A stretch of 64,000 bases of DNA from assembly GCA_945787155.1 (NCBI GenBank), contig CALZHD010000003.1:2455-66454 (forward strand), given 5' to 3'. The stretch's first letter is position 1; each line of letters begins with the position of its first letter. The notes under the pieces were generated by a model. The model worked only from the letters and a program-made list of their open reading frames with translations. It did no database searches and was not told where the DNA came from. Shown piece after piece: positions 21,551-27,542 of the stretch. The DNA comes from an uncultured Gammaproteobacteria bacterium (lineage in GTDB: Bacteria > Pseudomonadota > Gammaproteobacteria > SZUA-140). A program made the position numbers and the translations under genes.

Positions 21551-23164
21551 ATGCAAAACAACAGTCACATCGAATATTCGTCCAACATACAGATATGGAC
21601 CCCCCTCCGTCTGCTAAACCTATATCGAATCACGCTCGCAGGCCTTGCCACCATACTCTGCTACTCTGATGCAGTCCCCTACCCATTAGGGTCAAGCAAC
21701 TTCCTGTTTTTTTACGTCACCAGCATTATTTACCTGATAGTTGGTCTATTAAATATCATCACCATCAAACGACAGGCCCCCCTGTTTGAATACCAGATTT
21801 ACGCTCATGTTTTTATCGACATCATCATCATCACCCTGTTAATGCAGGCAAGTGGCGGTATTAGCAGCGGAATGGGAATATTATTAGTGATTGCTGTCGC
21901 GGCAGGAAGCCTCCTGATCGTTGGGCGCACCGCAATCATTTTCGCATCAGTCGCAACCCTTGCTGTGCTGACAGAGCAGATCTACGCTCACTGGAGCAGA
22001 CCGCTACTGGAAGTCAATTACACCCAGGCAGGCTTACTTGGTGCTAGTTTTTTCGCGACAGCCATCCTTACACAGGCACTTGCAAGAAGGCTACGCGAGA
22101 GTGAGAACCTTGCAGAGAAACGTGGCGTTGACCTCGCCAACATGGCGCAACTGACTGAATACATTATTCAGCGCATGCAAACAGGCATTCTGGTCATCAA
22201 TCACAACAAACACATTCGCCTCATCAACGCCTCAGCCTGTCACCTGCTAGAAGCACAGACGCAGTCTGCTATAAAGACAACCAGCGACCTTCCTACCAGT
22301 CTGACAGCACAAATCGAACATTGGTGGACTCACCCAGATGATGAACCTAAAGCATTCAAATCATCAGACACTGCGATCAATATAATGCCGCGTTTTGCCC
22401 GTCTGGGAGAGGAAATAGATGCTGGCACGCTGATTTTTCTTGAGGATATGGCGGCAGTCGCACAGCAGGCGCAACAATTAAAACTTGCATCACTTGGCGG
22501 CCTCACTGCCAGTATTGCACATGAAATTCGTAACCCGCTCGGCGCCATCAGCCATGCTGGACAACTGCTCGCCGAAACGCCTCAGTTACCCAAAAGTGAA
22601 AAACGCCTCACTGAGATCATTCAGCAGCATTCCCAGCGAATCAATACTATTATCGAAAACATCATGCAACTCAACAGGCGAGATCGCTCTAATCCTGAGG
22701 AGATCGACCTCAATCAATGGCTCGCATCATTCGTCGACGACTTCTATCTTAATGAAGAGGTACTACGCACCCAAATACACCATAGCCTGCCTGAAGAGAT
22801 CAACATCATTCGCTTTGATGCTAGCCAGCTACACCAGGTTTTATTCAACCTTTGTCAAAATGGATTACGCCATGGCGATCAAAATGGAACGCCACAACTT
22901 TGGCTACAGGGCGGGCTCAACATAGAGTCGAACAGCCCCTATCTTGATGTTATCGACAATGGCAAGGGCATCGACCCTACGCTTGCAGAACATATCTTTG
23001 AACCCTTTTTCACCACGGCAACAAACGGCACAGGGCTGGGGCTATATATCTCTCGCGAACTATGCGAGTCTAACCAGGCCCACCTTAACTACATATCAAT
23101 CCTCGATGGCGGCGGCTGCTTTCGCATCACCTTTGCCGACCCAAGACGACGACAGGTAATCTAG
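21551..23164 (+). CDS. pilS: Type IV pilus sensor histidine kinase PilS
   Basis: 537 aa with an N-terminal multi-TM region, H-box (SIAHEIRNPLGAI) and HATPase_c. Immediately upstream of a sigma-54-type response regulator and pilA. Confidence 0.85.
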   Translation: MQNNSHIEYSSNIQIWTPLRLLNLYRITLAGLATILCYSDAVPYPLGSSNFLFFYVTSIIYLIVGLLNIITIKRQAPLFEYQIYAHVFIDIIIITLLMQASGGISSGMGILLVIAVAAGSLLIVGRTAIIFASVATLAVLTEQIYAHWSRPLLEVNYTQAGLLGASFFATAILTQALARRLRESENLAEKRGVDLANMAQLTEYIIQRMQTGILVINHNKHIRLINASACHLLEAQTQSAIKTTSDLPTSLTAQIEHWWTHPDDEPKAFKSSDTAINIMPRFARLGEEIDAGTLIFLEDMAAVAQQAQQLKLASLGGLTASIAHEIRNPLGAISHAGQLLAETPQLPKSEKRLTEIIQQHSQRINTIIENIMQLNRRDRSNPEEIDLNQWLASFVDDFYLNEEVLRTQIHHSLPEEINIIRFDASQLHQVLFNLCQNGLRHGDQNGTPQLWLQGGLNIESNSPYLDVIDNGKGIDPTLAEHIFEPFFTTATNGTGLGLYISRELCESNQAHLNYISILDGGGCFRITFADPRRRQVI

Positions 23165-23428
23165 TGCTCTATCCCCGTGATAATTACGGATTCAGCGCCC
23201 CTGTGGCGTTTCGCAGCAAGGCACAGTGCGAAAGCAATGGCCATTCCCTTGTCGAGCACTGCAAAGTAGTTGTGGAATGTTATAGGGACGCCCTTCGGGT
23301 TAACTTGTCAACGCCCACGGACTGCGTTCCACCTCTTGACGAGGGAGCACTATTGTTCGCGAGGCGCACCTTGCCGTGAACGTTGACAAGCTAACTGAAC
23401 TCGTAATTATCACATGGATAGAGCACTA
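23163..23428. mobile_element. Putative miniature inverted-repeat element (MITE-like / structured RNA) filling the pilS-pilR gap
   Basis: 26-bp terminal inverted repeats: AGTGCTCTATCCCCGTGATAATTACG at 23163-23188 and its reverse complement with 2 mismatches at 23403-23428. The interior has further long-range complementarity (GTTAACTTGTCAACG at 23299-23313 versus CGTTGACAAGCTAAC at 23381-23395), a C-UUCG-G tetraloop and several short hairpins. The element spans exactly from the pilS stop to 2 nt before the pilR ATG. Confidence 0.4.
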
Positions 23429-23430
23429 AT

Positions 23431-24786
23431 ATGAATCAACCTACCGCACTGGTCGTCGATGACGAACCCGATATCCGCGAATTACTGGAACTCACCCTGC
23501 TACGCATGGGGATCGACTGCTATACAGCGGCATCTGTGACGGCAGCCAAAGCGGTATTGCTGCAACATCCCGATGTCGATCTCTGCCTCACCGACATGAA
23601 ACTCCCGGATGGCAATGGCATCGACCTCGTACAGTATATACAGGATCGCTACCCCGAGATCCCCTCAGCCGTCATCACAGCACACGGCAACATGGAGTCT
23701 GCGGTACAGGCGCTTAAGGCGGGTGCATTCGATTTTGTCTCCAAGCCAGTGGACCTCGGCATGCTGCGCACGCTGGTCACTACCGCACTAAAACTCAGCC
23801 CCAAAAACCAGACGACCAAACAGGAAGCCGCGCTCACACTACTGGGTGAATCCGGCGCCATTGAGAGCACTCGCGCCACCATCGCTAAACTTGCTCGTAG
23901 CCAGGCCCCAGTGCATATTAACGGCGAGTCAGGTACCGGCAAAGAGCTCGCTGCACGCCTGATTCACGAACAGAGCGCTCGCGCAGACAAACACTTTATA
24001 CCGGTCAACTGTGGCGCAATTCCCGAAGCGCTAATGGAAAGCGAATTCTTCGGCCACAAAAAAGGAAGCTTTACAGGTGCCACCACGAACAAGGACGGCC
24101 TCTTTCAGGCCGCCGATGGCGGCACGCTGTTTCTCGATGAAGTGGCCGACCTGCCACTTCACATGCAGGTCAAACTCCTGCGCGCCATCCAGGAGAAAGC
24201 GGTACGCCCCATCGGCGAACATCAGGAGATCAACATCGATGTACGCATTCTCAGCGCCACTCACAAGGATCTCGCGCAGCTAGTCAAGGAAGGAAAATTC
24301 CGTCAGGATCTTTTCTATCGTATCAACGTCATCGAGCTCCATATCCCGGCATTAAGAGAACGATCTGATGATATCCCGCTGCTCATCACCCATATATTGG
24401 AACGGCTTGCCGTCAATGAAGGGGGCAATACGCCATCACTACATGATGAGGCACTGACAGCACTGCTTAACTACGATTTTCCAGGTAATGTACGGGAATT
24501 GGAAAACATTCTGGAACGGGCCATGACCCTGTGTGAAGGCAGCAGTATCCGAACGGAAGATCTACAGTTGATTCATCACACGCCTCAGATGCAGATCACT
24601 AGCACCACTCCCCCAACGACGCCTTCAGGCAAAAATAGGCCACTCGACCCCCTGCTCGGTGATATCGAAAAGGAAACCATCGTAAAGGCACTGGAACAGG
24701 CCAAATACAATAAGACCGCCGCAGCCAAACTGCTCGGCATCTCATTTGGCGCATTGCGCTATCGTATGAAAAAGCTGGGGCTATGA
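23431..24786 (+). CDS. pilR: Sigma-54-dependent response regulator PilR
   Basis: 451 aa with a REC domain (DDEPDIREL...D54 context), an AAA+ sigma-54 activation domain (GESGTGKE, GAFTGA-like) and a C-terminal Fis-type HTH. Confidence 0.9.
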   Translation: MNQPTALVVDDEPDIRELLELTLLRMGIDCYTAASVTAAKAVLLQHPDVDLCLTDMKLPDGNGIDLVQYIQDRYPEIPSAVITAHGNMESAVQALKAGAFDFVSKPVDLGMLRTLVTTALKLSPKNQTTKQEAALTLLGESGAIESTRATIAKLARSQAPVHINGESGTGKELAARLIHEQSARADKHFIPVNCGAIPEALMESEFFGHKKGSFTGATTNKDGLFQAADGGTLFLDEVADLPLHMQVKLLRAIQEKAVRPIGEHQEINIDVRILSATHKDLAQLVKEGKFRQDLFYRINVIELHIPALRERSDDIPLLITHILERLAVNEGGNTPSLHDEALTALLNYDFPGNVRELENILERAMTLCEGSSIRTEDLQLIHHTPQMQITSTTPPTTPSGKNRPLDPLLGDIEKETIVKALEQAKYNKTAAAKLLGISFGALRYRMKKLGL

Positions 24787-24923
24787 ATTGTCGCCAGCAC
24801 ATATCGCCATACAAACCGGCACCAACTGCGCTTTAAGCACAGATTCTGTTCAAAATGCGCACCCTGACAACCATGAGATCACATAGCCGTGCCATTATAA
24901 AGCTCTGTAAATCAGTGCTATTC

Positions 24924-24939
24924 TGTGACCTCCGTCACA
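24924..24939 (+). promoter_or_regulatory. Palindrome TGTGAC-N4-GTCACA, a candidate PilR/enhancer site upstream of the pilA sigma-54 promoter
   Basis: Perfect 6-bp inverted repeat about 65 bp upstream of the -24 element. PilR sites characterised in other species contain (C/G)TGTC cores. No binding-site scan could be run. Confidence 0.3.
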
Positions 24940-24992
24940 AAATACAGGCAAAAACAGATCGCACAGCCCGTCTACTACAAAAAACTAAAGTT

Positions 24993-25008
24993 TGGCACGG
25001 TGCATGCA
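24993..25008 (+). promoter_or_regulatory. Sigma-54 (-24/-12) promoter of pilA
   Basis: TGGCACGgtgcaTGCA matches the TGGCACG-N4-TTGCW consensus with correct GG/GC spacing. It lies about 95 bp upstream of the pilA ATG and downstream of pilR. Confidence 0.65.
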
Positions 25009-25102
25009 GATACCAATGTGCGAGGCAAGCATATCTCCGGTATATGGAGAACAAGAGCAACGCCAGAAAAGCTAAACCATTTATATACTCAGGAGAACAA
25101 AT

Positions 25103-25558
25103 ATGAAAAAAGTACAACAAGGTTTTACACTGATTGAATTGATGATCGTGGTCGCCATTATCGGTATTTTGGCCGCCATCGCGATTCCACAATTTCAGGA
25201 TTATGTGACACGCGCCAAATTCCAGGATGGCACGGCCGCAATCTCTTCCGTCAGAACAGCAACCGCTGTCTGTATTCAAGAAAATGCAGGAGACCCAATG
25301 TCTTGTGATGATAATACTGAAATCGGTGTAGTCATGGGAACGACTGCTGCAGAAGGCGCCATCACTATCTCTCGAGGCACATTTACTGCCAGCACCAATG
25401 GTACAGGTGGCACAGCAGTATTCGTCATCACCGGCGATGCCACTCTGGGCGCTTGCGTTGTCACAGCTACTGGCACTGTCAATGCGACCGACATCAGCTG
25501 GGATTACGTAACCACTGGCACTAACTGCACAAAATCAAAAACAGGCTATGACACATAA
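25103..25558 (+). CDS. pilA: Type IVa major pilin
   Basis: 151 aa with a class III leader MKKVQQG followed by [22 protein letters not shown] (prepilin peptidase site G/F, Glu5). The C-terminal region contains 4 Cys. Confidence 0.9.
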
Positions 25559-25584
25559 TAGCTAGTACTACCCTCCCCTCTGGC

Positions 25585-25617
25585 CCCCTACAGTTTCTGT
25601 AGAGGGCCATTTTTTTA
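25585..25617 (+). terminator. Rho-independent terminator after pilA
   Basis: A 9-bp GC-rich stem (CCCTACAG-ttt-CTGTAGaGGG, one bulge) followed by CCA and a T7 run. Confidence 0.7.
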
Positions 25618-25823
25618 TATTTAGGACTCCTCTAAAACAACACCACTCATTGCTAGCAACCCGTTGTTTTTCGAATAAACGAAGAATGAACTAACAATGT
25701 GCGTCAAAGACCTGATGCCTATCGTTAGCGGTAAGTCATAAACACTTTCTAACCCCCTAAACAATTGCTGCGCATAGCCGATAGCTTTCATACGATAAGA
25801 TAACTCAATTAATTCTGATAGTT

Positions 25824-27542
25824 ATGAGTACACCAGCAACCAGTATTAACCTCAGCGGTCTCGCCAGAAAACTGGTGTTAGACGGACTGCTGGAAGAAGA
25901 TAAGGCCATTGAAGCCAATGAACAGGCGAGCAAAAAAAAGACACCCCTGGTTCGCTATCTTGTAGAAAATGAAATATTAGACAGTAGCTCCATCGCTCAC
26001 GCTGCCGCACAAGAATTTGGCACCCCTGTTTTCGATATCAACAGCATGGATTTAGAGATCGCAGCGACTAAGCTGATCGATCATAAAATGATCCAGAAAC
26101 ATAACGCGCTACCACTATTTAAGCGTGGTAATCGCCTCTTTGTCGCCGTATCTGACCCAACTAATCAGCAAGCACTGGACGAATTCAAATTCAATGTAGG
26201 CGCCAATGCCGAAGCAATTCTAGTTGAAGAAGATAAACTCGCCAAAATCATTGAACAGGTCTTAAATGAGCAAGACACCAGCATGGATGATCTTGACGAC
26301 ACCGATCTGGATGATATCGACATATCCGGCGGTGATGAAGATAGCATGGGAGATGATAGCGATGACTCCGAGGTAGACGATACCCCGGTAGTGCGCTTCG
26401 TCAACAAGGTATTGCTCGATGCCATCAACAAAGGGGCATCTGATCTCCATTTCGAACCTTATGAGAAGGTCTACCGGGTCCGTTTTCGTGTTGATGGCAT
26501 CCTCCAGGAAGTCGCCTCCCCACCCATTTCGCTGGTAAGAAAGATTTCTGCTCGTATCAAAGTACTCTCTCAACTGGATATCTCGGAACGCCGCGTCCCT
26601 CAGGATGGACGGATGAAGATGAAGATTTCAAAGACCCGCGCGATCGATTTTCGTGTCAGCACCTGCCCCACATTGTTTGGTGAAAAGATCGTTATGCGTA
26701 TTCTTGATCCCAGCAGCGCCACCCTCGGCATCGACGCACTTGGGTACGAACCAGACCAGAAAAAACTCTTCATGGACGCCATCCATAAACCTTATGGCAT
26801 GGTGCTGGTTACCGGCCCAACAGGGAGTGGTAAAACGGTATCACTCTACACCGCGCTCAACATTCTCAATACCGATGACCGCAATATCTCAACCGCGGAG
26901 GATCCGGCAGAAATTAGCCTCGCGGGTATAAACCAGGTCAACGTAAACCCCAAGGCAGGACTCACCTTTCCGGCCGCATTGAAATCATTTCTACGCCAGG
27001 ATCCAGACATCATCATGGTGGGTGAGATTCGTGATATTGAGACAGGGGAGATTGCGATCAAAGCGGCGCAGACAGGTCACTTTGTGCTCTCCACACTTCA
27101 TACCAATGATGCACCGCAAACCTTGACGCGGCTGATCAACATGGGTATCGCACCCTTCAATATCGCCTCAGCAGTGAGTCTGATCATTGCGCAACGATTG
27201 GGACGCCGTCTGTGTAGCCATTGCAAGCAACCCGTTGATCTCCCCAAGGAAGCTCTGTTAAAAGAGGGTTTCAAGGAAGAGGAACTCGATGATCTCACTA
27301 TTTATGGCCCTGTTGGATGTGATCAATGCAACGGCGGCTACAAGGGCCGTGTCGGTATTTACCAGGTCATGCCAATTTCAGAGGGCATGGGAAAACTTAT
27401 CATGGAAGGCGGCAATGCAATACAACTCGCTGAACAGGCAAAAGTAGAAGGCGTCAACGATCTTCACGCTTCCGGGCTAATAAAGATCAGACAAGGTATT
27501 CTCAGCCTCGAAGAACTCAACCGAATCGTCACTGCCGACTAA
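25824..27542 (+). CDS. pilB: Type IV pilus assembly ATPase PilB
   Basis: 572 aa GspE-family secretion ATPase with Walker A (GPTGSGKT), an Asp box and a tetracysteine motif (CSHC...CDQC). Confidence 0.95.
   Translation: MSTPATSINLSGLARKLVLDGLLEEDKAIEANEQASKKKTPLVRYLVENEILDSSSIAHAAAQEFGTPVFDINSMDLEIAATKLIDHKMIQKHNALPLFKRGNRLFVAVSDPTNQQALDEFKFNVGANAEAILVEEDKLAKIIEQVLNEQDTSMDDLDDTDLDDIDISGGDEDSMGDDSDDSEVDDTPVVRFVNKVLLDAINKGASDLHFEPYEKVYRVRFRVDGILQEVASPPISLVRKISARIKVLSQLDISERRVPQDGRMKMKISKTRAIDFRVSTCPTLFGEKIVMRILDPSSATLGIDALGYEPDQKKLFMDAIHKPYGMVLVTGPTGSGKTVSLYTALNILNTDDRNISTAEDPAEISLAGINQVNVNPKAGLTFPAALKSFLRQDPDIIMVGEIRDIETGEIAIKAAQTGHFVLSTLHTNDAPQTLTRLINMGIAPFNIASAVSLIIAQRLGRRLCSHCKQPVDLPKEALLKEGFKEEELDDLTIYGPVGCDQCNGGYKGRVGIYQVMPISEGMGKLIMEGGNAIQLAEQAKVEGVNDLHASGLIKIRQGILSLEELNRIVTAD

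What the first reader, a model, noticed from the sequence alone, without database searches (positions are those of the whole stretch)
23161..23433. 266-bp element with 26-bp terminal inverted repeats exactly filling the pilS-pilR intergenic gap
pilS and pilR are usually adjacent or overlapping. Here they are separated by a 266-bp non-coding insert. It is bounded by AGTGCTCTATCCCCGTGATAATTACG (23163-23188) and its reverse complement at 23403-23428 (24/26 match). The interior is highly self-complementary: a 15-nt long-range stem (23299-23313 / 23381-23395), a UUCG tetraloop hairpin and a CCTC-TTGAC-GAGG hairpin. The left repeat starts 1 nt into the pilS TAG stop and the right repeat ends 2 nt before the pilR ATG, so the element supplies or abuts the pilR ribosome-binding region. 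Candidate interpretations: a Correia/ERIC-like MITE inserted between the two-component genes, or a large regulatory RNA structure that couples or occludes pilR translation.
Basis: seen in the sequence. Interest (0 to 1): 0.6.

Follow-up and report, generated by a model that had tools for sequence, protein, structure and literature searches.

The report
MITE inserted in pilS stop codon
The 266-bp spacer between pilS and pilR is one copy of a small, transposase-less mobile element (a MITE of an apparently undescribed family) that landed in the TA of the pilS stop codon. The family seems built so that such insertions do not silence the gene downstream.

Summary
pilS ends at TAG 23162-23164 and pilR starts at ATG 23431. 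The gap is bounded by a 27-nt terminal inverted repeat (25/27) and folds into a very stable closed structure (z = -9.7).

It is a MITE insertion, not a locus-specific riboregulator. Six loci from the closest relatives found (PilR 81-93% identical) have pilS TAA, one base, then pilR ATG, with no insert. The window reads ...TA[GTGCTC...GAGCAC]TA..., so the TA of the old stop codon is duplicated.

Full-length copies (77-99% identical to the family consensus, a few lower) lie at 46 different genomic sites, with 59- to 160-bp deletion derivatives elsewhere, in MAGs and metagenomes of marine Gammaproteobacteria, including Sedimenticola and tubeworm symbionts. The inferred target is CTAG with TA duplicated, the hallmark of IS630/Tc1-mariner transposases. 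No transposase with these ends was found.

Family-level findings:
- Three long helices keep pairing through many compensatory changes.
- Orientation is strongly biased: the right end lies 0-7 nt before a start codon at 22 of 40 sites, against 5 for the left end.
- There is an outward TTGACA-16-AATTAT promoter-like site.
- One stop-free frame runs from a GTG overlapping the upstream stop to a stop at the right junction. This frame is broken in the window copy.

Rfam, Pfam and the searchable literature have no match. It is a new member of a known kind.

The parts
21551..23164 (+). pilS (sensor histidine kinase). Its stop codon TAG is made of the target TA plus the first base (G) of the element.
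   Evidence: ORF. Homologues in L064-L069 carry Pfam 6TM_PilS, HisKA and HATPase_c. In relatives the stop is TAA.
23162..23163 (.). Left copy of the duplicated target dinucleotide TA
   Evidence: Empty sites in relatives read ...GTAATT TA AT ATG. The window reads ...GTAATC TA[G...C]TA AT ATG.
23164..23426 (+). MITE proper (263 bp), in the family's '+' orientation, which is the same sense as pilS-pilR
   Evidence: 88% identical to the family consensus over its whole length. nhmmer E = 7e-84. Alignments A1 and A2.
23427..23428 (.). Right copy of the duplicated TA. With the next base A it forms TAA, restoring the ancestral TAA-T-ATG context of pilR.
23164..23195 (+). Left terminal inverted repeat, the 5' arm of closing helix H1
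   Evidence: 15 of 34 H1 pairs show compensatory changes across copies.
23395..23426 (+). Right terminal inverted repeat, the 3' arm of H1. It contains the -10-like AATTAT and the weak SD-like GGATAGAG.
23196..23290 (+). Hairpin H2 (arms 23196-23217 / 23269-23290) with an inner hairpin. The 3' arm of the window copy carries a cluster of C>T changes that leave G.U pairs.
   Evidence: for the fold. 16 of 22 pairs are compensated in the family..
23291..23299 (+). CCC-UUCG-GG mini-hairpin at the centre of the element
   Evidence: The pairs are invariant in 40 copies.
23300..23394 (+). Hairpin H4 (arms 23300-23320 / 23374-23394) enclosing the CCTC-TTGAC-GAGG hairpin
   Evidence: (I2). 18 of 21 pairs are compensated in the family.
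23383..23410 (+). Sigma-70-like promoter match TTGACA-16 nt-AATTAT, pointing out of the right end towards pilR
   Evidence: 10 of 12 matches. TTGACA is present in 38/53 and AATTAT in 48/53 full-length copies. This is a consensus match only; function was not tested.
23164..23379 (+). Remnant of the family's stop-free frame. It starts at a GTG overlapping the pilS TAG (TAGTG) and is cut short here at TGA 23377-23379 by a 1-nt deletion.
   Evidence: 71-aa ORF. In 29/53 copies the frame ends exactly at the right-junction stop. The window copy is 267 nt against 268 nt for the consensus.
23431..24786 (+). pilR (sigma-54-dependent response regulator). Its ATG lies 2 nt after the right TA and is unpaired in the predicted fold.
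   Evidence: Pfam Response_reg, Sigma54_activat and HTH_8 on homologues.

Best explanation
The pilS-pilR spacer is a non-autonomous DNA transposon (MITE). It is 263 bp long, is flanked by a duplicated TA, and carries about 30-bp terminal inverted repeats and no transposase.

Shown:
- It inserted into the TA of the ancestral pilS TAA stop codon.
- The element's first G rebuilds a TAG stop for pilS.
- The right TA plus the flanking A rebuilds the TAA-T-ATG context of pilR.
- It belongs to a large dispersed family in marine sulfur-oxidiser-type Gammaproteobacteria.

Inferred:
- It was moved in trans by an IS630/Tc1-mariner-type DDE transposase. The inferred targets are CTAG or YTAR with TA duplicated, which is that family's hallmark.
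- The insert is transcribed within the pilSR mRNA and folds into a closed three-helix domain. The closing helix places the pilS stop codon and the pilR start codon side by side.
- The family has features that let the downstream gene stay expressed: an outward -35/-10 match, an SD-like stretch in the right end, and one stop-free frame. In intact copies that frame runs from a GTG overlapping the upstream stop to a stop just before the downstream ATG.
- The window copy is an older, partly decayed copy (88% identical to the consensus, frame broken). Its promoter-like site and its fold are intact.
For: Empty site: six loci from the closest PilR relatives found (93%, 83%, 83% and 81% identical) have pilS stop and pilR ATG one base apart...GTAAxx TAA T ATG. 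The window has the same flanks around TA[element]TA.

Copy number: the TIR pattern hit 63 loci in species-representative genomes, more than 20 of them in a single MAG. There are 53 full-length copies at 46 distinct sites, plus 54-61-bp and roughly 100-160-bp deletion derivatives.

Target: of 40 unique TA...TA-bounded copies, the reconstructed target is CTAG in 23, CTAA in 7 and TTAG in 3. IS630 and ISY100 duplicate TA, and IS630 prefers TA within CTAG (PMC2170065 text and its reference to Tenzen & Ohtsubo 1991).

No coding capacity for a transposase: there are no Pfam or NCBIfam hits.

Structure: RNAalifold on 40 copies gives 96 pairs, 52 of them with compensatory double changes. Pairs with a compensatory change number 15/34 in H1, 16/22 in H2 and 18/21 in H4, against shuffle means of 7.4, 3.9 and 3.8, and near zero in slid controls. 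In its native context the element folds as a closed domain from U23162 to A23428 with the pilR AUG free.

Orientation: the downstream gene is co-directional in 28 copies against 5. An ATG lies within 10 nt of the right end at 22 of 40 sites, against 5 of 40 for the left end. The left-end TAG is the stop codon of an upstream ORF in 13 copies, against 3 for the right end.

Promoter-like site.
Against: - No autonomous element or transposase with matching ends was found in about 1.1 Mb of flanking DNA, so the mobilising enzyme is inferred from the target site only.
- Sequence alone cannot prove that TA is duplicated rather than carried by the element.
- The window holds a single copy and its own genome was not in the collections. 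Multi-copy status is therefore shown in relatives, not in this genome.
- Transcription, folding in vivo, promoter activity and translation of the frame are all untested.
- G.U against A.C counts do not give a clean strand signal: H2 is 37:10 but H4 is 6:12.
- The stop-free frame is broken in the window copy.
Confidence: 0.92

Rival explanations
1. A locus-specific cis-regulatory RNA that evolved in place between pilS and pilR to couple or occlude pilR translation.
For: The fold is very stable (z = -9.7). The closing helix ends 2 nt before the pilR AUG. Rfam has no competing assignment.
Against: It is absent from the junction in all six relatives' loci, which have TAA-N-ATG. The same sequence occurs at 46 unrelated sites next to unrelated genes. 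It is bounded by TIRs and a duplicated TA.
Confidence: 0.02
2. A hairpin element moved as single-stranded DNA by an HUH transposase (REPIN/RAYT-like or an IS200/IS605-derived PATE). It would insert 3' of CTA without any target duplication.
For: Internal hairpins are conserved through compensatory changes, as expected if a folded single strand is the substrate. The 59-bp forms look like REP doublets. Sequence alone cannot show that the TA is duplicated.
Against: The two ends are long, near-perfect inverted repeats of each other, which IS200/IS605 ends are not. Both flanks show the symmetric C|TA|G preference. Orientation correlates with the downstream gene only (28:5) and not with the upstream gene (23:20), so it does not look like a replication-strand effect. 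No Y1/HUH gene was seen next to copies.
Confidence: 0.07
3. A small protein-coding gene (88 aa) sitting between pilS and pilR.
For: One frame is stop-free through the element in 34/53 copies. There are 522 protein clusters, mostly exactly 88 aa, called as hypothetical proteins in public data. 30 of 32 copies of 268 nt are open, against 20.2 expected.
Against: Substitutions show no third-codon-position excess: 240/228/192. The peptide is unrelated in the divergent but still open copy L070. There is no Pfam or NCBIfam family. One-nucleotide indels are common. The sequence is a nested palindrome with TIRs and a TSD. The window copy is truncated to 71 aa.
Confidence: 0.03

Closest known systems
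Correia repeat-enclosed elements (CREE/NEMIS) of Neisseria
   Same: Both are small non-autonomous elements with roughly 25-bp TIRs and TA at both termini. Both have size classes that differ by an internal segment, lie in intergenic positions close to genes, are co-transcribed as long stem-loops and carry putative outward promoters (review PMC2229807).
   Different: The sequence and hosts are unrelated. This element is longer (268 nt against about 105-155 nt). It has two further internal helices maintained by covariation, a strong orientation bias towards downstream start codons, and a full-length stop-free frame. The 155-bp Correia form has stops in all frames.
RUP of Streptococcus pneumoniae, thought to be mobilised by IS630-Spn1
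   Same: A MITE that inserts at TA and is attributed to an IS630-family transposase (PMC2229807).
   Different: For RUP the parent IS with matching TIRs is known. Here none was found. RUP is 107 bp, occurs in Firmicutes and has no ORF.
IS630 / ISY100 (IS630/Tc1/mariner superfamily)
   Same: TA target duplication, and a preference of IS630 for TA within 5'-CTAG-3' (PMC2170065 and its cited Tenzen & Ohtsubo 1991). Here 23 of 40 reconstructed targets are CTAG.
   Different: Those are autonomous elements of about 1-1.2 kb that encode a DDE transposase. This element encodes none, and no sequence match to a known IS end was established.
ERIC/IRU (RU-1) and YPAL (RU-2) of enterobacteria
   Same: TA termini, hairpin-forming transcripts, contiguous open reading frames within the repeat, and effects on neighbouring mRNAs (PMC2229807).
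   Different: There is no sequence similarity: blastn against 5,426 complete E. coli genomes found nothing. Size, hosts and the stop-to-start bridging geometry all differ.
Rickettsia palindromic elements (RPE)
   Same: Palindromic mobile repeats whose sequence can be read through by ribosomes.
   Different: RPEs insert in frame inside protein genes and become part of the protein. Here the inserted length is 266 nt, not a multiple of 3. Copies sit at gene boundaries and regenerate stop codons at both junctions.

Membership tests
Bacterial MITE (miniature inverted-repeat transposable element) | Terminal inverted repeats | tested here: met
   A 27-nt TIR matching 25/27 in the window. TIRs are present in all 53 full-length copies, with concerted changes at both ends.
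Bacterial MITE (miniature inverted-repeat transposable element) | Target-site duplication and filled/empty site polymorphism | tested here: met
   TA lies on both sides. Six relatives' loci show the empty site with a single TA, the pilS TAA stop.
Bacterial MITE (miniature inverted-repeat transposable element) | Many dispersed copies in different genomic contexts | tested here: met
   63 genome loci, at least 120 metagenome loci, and 46 distinct full-length insertion sites. Copies within the window's own genome could not be counted.
Bacterial MITE (miniature inverted-repeat transposable element) | Small size and no transposase gene | tested here: met
   263 bp. The only ORF is 71-88 aa with no Pfam or NCBIfam match.
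Bacterial MITE (miniature inverted-repeat transposable element) | An autonomous parent element with matching ends | tested here: inconclusive
   None was found in about 1.1 Mb of fetched flanks. Whole host genomes could not be scanned.
IS630/Tc1-mariner-mobilised elements | Insertion at TA with 2-bp TA duplication | tested here: met
   The caveat is that duplication cannot be told apart from an element-borne TA by sequence alone.
IS630/Tc1-mariner-mobilised elements | Preference for TA within CTAG (IS630) | tested here: met
   CTAG in 23 of 40 targets, CTAA in 7 and TTAG in 3. Flank position -1 is C in 30/40 and +1 is G in 31/40.
IS630/Tc1-mariner-mobilised elements | Ends bound and cut by a DDE transposase of that family | not testable with these tools
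   This needs a cognate transposase and biochemistry, or whole-genome co-occurrence data.
Correia / ERIC families (as sequence families) | Sequence homology to the family consensus and occurrence in Neisseria or enterobacteria | tested here: not met
   No blastn match in complete E. coli genomes, plasmids or phages. The hosts are marine Gammaproteobacteria. Correia was not compared directly, because no Neisseria collection was available.
Described structured RNA families (Rfam 15) | Covariance-model match at or near the gathering score | tested here: not met
   There were no gathering-level hits in the window. The only hit was a chance lncRNA match at E = 3.3 in the region.
REPIN / IS200-IS605-derived PATE | No TIR between the two ends, no TSD, association with an HUH (Y1) transposase | tested here: not met
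   The ends are 27-34-nt inverted repeats of each other and the target is a symmetric CTAG. No HUH gene was seen nearby, but genome-wide absence was not tested.

The most novel reading that the evidence does not exclude
The family may be an operon-compatible MITE that relays ribosomes across itself. Its left end turns the target TA into a TAG stop that overlaps a GTG (TAGTG). From that GTG, one frame stays free of stop codons for all 88 codons without any constraint on the peptide. It ends at a TAA, TAG or TGA formed at the right junction, 0-7 nt before the host start codon.

Ribosomes that terminate on the upstream gene, or that load on the displaced host Shine-Dalgarno sequence, would then translate through the element and re-initiate on the downstream gene. 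The outward promoter and the compact fold would further limit polarity.

This would explain four observations: the orientation bias, the abutment to start codons, the scarcity and non-spread of stop-creating mutations in that one frame, and the fact that deletion derivatives next to start codons are mostly in phase.
Probability: 0.3. Interest if true: 0.7.

Novelty: new member of a known kind. Interest (0 to 1): 0.45.

Why it matters
At this locus, it explains an odd 266-bp gap in a normally overlapping two-component gene pair as a transposon scar. It does not point to a new regulator. It also warns annotators that the 71-88-aa 'hypothetical proteins' called on these repeats (522 clusters in public data) are MITE frames.

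At the family level, it adds a large, apparently undescribed MITE family from uncultured marine sulfur-oxidiser-type Gammaproteobacteria and tubeworm symbionts. The family combines three things: a target preference for stop codons and SD-ATG spacers, helices kept by compensatory changes, and a strong orientation bias towards downstream start codons.

If the relay or promoter reading is right, it shows how a selfish element can be shaped to insert between translationally coupled genes without polar damage. That can be tested directly with reporter fusions.

Tried and rejected
- Rfam gave nothing, either at gathering level on the whole window or at E-value level on the region.
- blastn against plasmids, phages and complete E. 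coli genomes found no match.
- An exact look-up of the window's PilR found it is not on record, so the source genome could not be retrieved.
- The search for an autonomous parent failed by three routes. Clustering ORFs across loci gave only housekeeping families such as ABC ATPases and pil genes. Long-range TIR pairs turned out to be two separate MITEs flanking ordinary genes, namely the his operon, a hydrolase and cytochrome c. IR-flanked ORFs of 230-520 aa gave no candidate.
- The G.U against A.C asymmetry test for a strand-specific RNA was mixed: H2 favours the + strand and H4 the - strand. No claim is made from it.
- Long-range pairing of the internal segments C and F as a pseudoknot has covariation barely above shuffles. 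It is left as an unexplained symmetry.
- Four structure-pair runs failed on string-length typos. They were replaced by an equivalent script and RNAalifold.
- The viral-contig scan returned only chance 19-mer matches inside a coding region.
- Literature searches found no description of this family, whether by TIR sequence strings, by MITE plus symbiont terms, or by MITE plus translational coupling. The Thiomargarita MITEs are different elements.
- ORF intactness is not enriched among start-adjacent full-length copies: 19/27 against 13/23.
Full report
**1. The observation**

pilS (21551-23164) ends with TAG at 23162-23164 and pilR (23431-24786) begins with ATG at 23431, leaving a 266-bp gap. The left repeat AGTGCTCTATCCCCGTGATAATTACG is at 23163-23188. 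No shuffle of the window produced a match. Including the outer T and A, the arms are 27 nt (25/27). Weaker complementarity runs on to 60 nt.

The internal long-range stem (23299-23320 / 23374-23395, 86%), the UUCG hairpin and the CCTC-TTGAC-GAGG hairpin are all present. The + strand folds at -126.8 kcal/mol (z = -9.7) and the - strand at -121.2 kcal/mol (z = -7.9).

**2. It is an insertion**

The closest PilR homologues found are 93%, 83%, 83% and 81% identical. I fetched six loci encoding them. All share the gene order RNase G - maf - pilS - pilR - pilin. In all six, the pilS stop and the pilR ATG are one base apart.

The junctions read ...CAGGTAATT TAA T ATG, or ...GGTAACT TAA T ATG in the 93% relative. 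The window reads ...CAGGTAATC TA[GTGCTC...GAGCAC]TA AT ATG. So the element (23164-23426, 263 bp) sits in the TA of the old TAA stop codon, and that TA is present on both sides. The element's first G makes a new TAG stop for pilS. The right TA plus the old A restores TAA-T-ATG in front of pilR.

**3. It is one copy of a large dispersed family**

A scan of one genome per species with GTGCTCTATCCNNGTGATAA gave 63 loci. About four, in Firmicutes and Fibrobacter MAGs, show no further similarity to the element and look like chance hits. The rest are in Gammaproteobacteria MAGs: Sedimenticola, Thiotrichales, Chromatiales and endosymbionts of Escarpia and Lamellibrachia. One MAG alone holds more than 20.

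blastn and extraction gave 53 full-length copies of 267-269 nt, plus variants of 282-340 nt with paired insertions. Most are 77-99% identical to the consensus, and a few divergent or insertion-bearing copies are lower. They lie at 46 distinct sites with unrelated flanks. There are also deletion derivatives of 54-61 bp (only the two repeats) and of about 100-160 bp, as well as one-ended remnants.

Some insertions are old. One derivative is shared at the same site by four tubeworm-symbiont assemblies. Another site is occupied in six assemblies. The window itself holds only this one copy, and its genome was not in the searchable collections.

**4. How it moves (inferred)**

I took the 40 copies bounded by TA...TA with unique flanks and reconstructed their targets. 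The target is CTAG in 23, CTAA in 7 and TTAG in 3. The base before the left TA is C in 30/40 and the base after the right TA is G in 31/40.

Insertion into TA with TA duplication is the signature of IS630/Tc1/mariner elements, and IS630 prefers the TA within CTAG (PMC2170065 and the Tenzen & Ohtsubo 1991 paper it cites). I therefore attribute mobilisation to such a transposase acting in trans.

This step is not shown. No transposase gene flanked by these ends was found in about 1.1 Mb of fetched DNA. Sequence alone also cannot separate a TA duplication from a TA carried by the element.

An HUH/ssDNA mechanism is the main rival. It is disfavoured by the long inverted ends, by the symmetric target, and by the pattern of orientation bias described in section 6.

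**5. Structure**

The consensus (268 nt counting both TAs) has four structural parts:
- a closing helix H1 formed by the terminal repeats (1-34 / 235-268);
- hairpin H2 (35-56 / 108-129) with an inner hairpin;
- a central CCC-UUCG-GGG hairpin;
- hairpin H4 (139-159 / 214-234).

RNAalifold on 40 copies predicts 96 pairs, 52 of them with at least one compensatory double change. With 14 copies the figure was 20 of 91.

My own count of pairs with a compensatory change is shown below. Partners slid by 1-3 columns fall to 22-53% pairing.

| Helix | Pairs with a compensatory change | Column-shuffle mean |
|---|---|---|
| H1 | 15/34 | 7.4 |
| H2 | 16/22 | 3.9 |
| H4 | 18/21 | 3.8 |
| Inner hairpin | 7/16 | 1.3 |

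The terminal repeats also fall into subfamilies whose two ends changed together, for example TATCCA/TGGATA, TTTCAA/TTGAAA and TACCCA/TGGGTA.

Two internal segments (57-106 and 163-212) are reverse complements on the same antidiagonal as the ends, but covariation for that pairing is weak. G.U against A.C counts do not identify one functional strand: H2 is 37:10, H1 is 15:9 and H4 is 6:12.

So pairing is maintained. Selection on the transcript, on a DNA intermediate, or templated repair of quasi-palindromes could each contribute.

**6. Position and orientation relative to genes**

Define '+' as the orientation of the window copy. The results are:
- The gene on the right side is co-directional in 28 copies and opposed in 5. 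The gene on the left is co-directional in 23 and opposed in 20.
- Among 40 distinct sites with both flanks available, an ATG lies 0-7 nt after the right TA in 22. The mirror situation at the left end occurs in 5, which is close to chance.
- The left-end TAG is the stop codon of a co-directional upstream ORF in 13 copies. The same holds at the right end in 3.
- Nine copies, including the window, sit exactly as stop|element|start between tandem genes.
- In one orthologous set the element lies between a GGGAGG Shine-Dalgarno sequence and the ATG.
- The 59-bp forms show no such bias.

The two ends are nearly identical, so the bias must come from the asymmetric interior. Only the downstream neighbour is biased, so this does not look like a replication-strand effect.

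**7. Candidate reasons (all inferred)**

(a) Outward promoter. A sigma-70-like match TTGACA-16-AATTAT points out of the right end (23383-23410, 10/12). TTGACA is present in 38/53 and AATTAT in 48/53 copies. A transcript starting there would carry the right-end GGATAGAG (GAAGGAG in some subfamilies) 5-13 nt before the host ATG.

(b) Juxtaposition by folding. In the read-through transcript the element folds as a closed domain from U23162 to A23428. This puts the pilS stop and the old AGGU Shine-Dalgarno-like stretch next to the free pilR AUG.

(c) A stop-free frame. The frame starting at the GTG that overlaps the left TAG (TAGTG) is free of stops through the whole element in 34/53 copies. In 29 of these it ends exactly at the TAA, TAG or TGA formed at the right junction.
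- Of 32 copies of 268 nt, 30 are open, against 20.2 expected if their substitutions are relocated at random. This test is not corrected for shared ancestry.
- Stop-creating mutations in this frame are 3 singletons, against 2-8 mutations spread over 6-33 copies in each of the other five frames.
- There is no third-position excess (240/228/192).
- The very divergent copy L070 is still open but encodes an unrelated peptide.
- Deletion derivatives next to start codons are mostly in phase: 4 of 6, against 1 of 6 for the others.
- Gene callers have produced 522 clusters of this ORF, mostly exactly 88 aa, all unnamed or 'hypothetical'. There is no Pfam or NCBIfam match.

Openness, rather than the peptide, may therefore be what is kept, which suggests a ribosome relay. 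I rate this at about 0.3.

In the window copy a 1-nt deletion ends the frame at 23377-23379, 52 nt before the right end. Here only (a) and (b) can apply.

**8. Comparison with known elements**

The element works like the classical bacterial MITEs: Correia/NEMIS, ERIC, RUP and YPAL. These share TA termini, TIRs, stem-loop transcripts, occasional ORFs and promoters (review PMC2229807). Its target matches IS630.

It is not a sequence member of those families. There was no hit in E. coli genomes, plasmids or phages, no Rfam family, and no paper containing its end sequences or describing MITEs in these symbionts. The MITEs reported in Thiomargarita are different elements.

**9. Verdict**

This is a real feature, correctly suspected to be a MITE. 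It is a new member of a known kind. The specific copy is a somewhat decayed insertion in the pilS stop codon.

The family-level regularities are the part worth following up: stop-codon and SD-ATG targets, orientation bias, maintained helices and a stop-free bridging frame.

Noticed in passing
L071:2078-2345, L016:5560-5704, L052:4953-5198: Other type IV pilus gene junctions carry the same family in other genomes. The pilB|pilC junction has a full copy in L071 and a 145-bp derivative with the same flanks in L016. L052 has a copy between the pilC stop and the next ATG. Pilus operon junctions appear to be hit repeatedly.
   Followed up: partly
L185:2989-3258 and L185:4638-4906: There are two copies in one histidine-biosynthesis operon, one between the ORFs I read as hisA and hisF (named from their translations; no family search was run) and one just upstream of hisH.
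   Followed up: no
L042:4253-4350, L044:347-443, L051:609-706, L063:7097-7194: A derivative of about 100 bp (left repeat plus the right-hand 65 nt) sits at the same site, with the same flank agataatctatcttaagacc, in four tubeworm-endosymbiont assemblies (Escarpia spicata, Lamellibrachia barhami, Escarpia laminata, L. anaximandri). This is an old, vertically inherited insertion.
   Followed up: partly
L099:107-374, L100:1335-1602, L126:4478-4745, L161:835-1102, L163:684-951, L105:684-807: One site between a GGGAGG Shine-Dalgarno sequence and an ATG is occupied in six assemblies. The terminal repeats differ by compensatory changes (TATCCA/TGGATA against TACCCA/TGGGTA). The GTG frame is open in all of them, and L105 is a 124-bp in-phase deletion derivative.
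   Followed up: partly
L029:52-363; L075:2147-2486; L162:489-792; L184:7499-7802: Some variants carry paired, mutually complementary insertions at distant positions. In L029 these are 22-23 nt each, near consensus positions 57 and 166. The +36 and +72 nt variants keep the GTG frame open. The L029 pair implies a helix not present in the minimum-energy model.
   Followed up: no
window 23270-23283: Compared with the consensus, the 3' arm of hairpin H2 in the window copy has a cluster of six C>T changes and one G>A change. All leave G.U or A-U pairs on the + strand. This could be deamination-like mutation or selection for RNA pairing, and it is unresolved.
   Followed up: partly
consensus positions 57-106 and 163-212 (window about 23218-23267 and 23323-23372): The tops of the two internal hairpins are reverse complements of each other, on the same axis of symmetry as the terminal repeats. 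The whole element is therefore a nested palindrome. Covariation for this long-range pairing is weak, and its meaning is unknown (kissing loops, symmetric protein sites or history).
   Followed up: partly
window 24786-25824 compared with L065:5350-7848, L067:5347-7860 and L069:5353-7839: Relatives have a Wzy_C (O-antigen-ligase-like) gene between pilR and pilB, just after the pilin gene where one is called (L065, L067). The window has only the pilin ORF (25103-25558) before pilB (25824-27542).
   Followed up: no
window 23176-23184 (+) and 23406-23435 (-): Each terminal repeat also contains an inward-facing extended -10-like TGTGATAAT. The scan reports the one on the - strand (TTCATA-18-GATAAT with TG).
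   Followed up: no
L184:7499-7802 right flank; L030:1226-1551: Some copies are tandem or abutting. In L184 another copy's end (gtgctctttcaa) starts directly after the right TA. In L030 a 59-bp form directly abuts a full-length copy.
   Followed up: no
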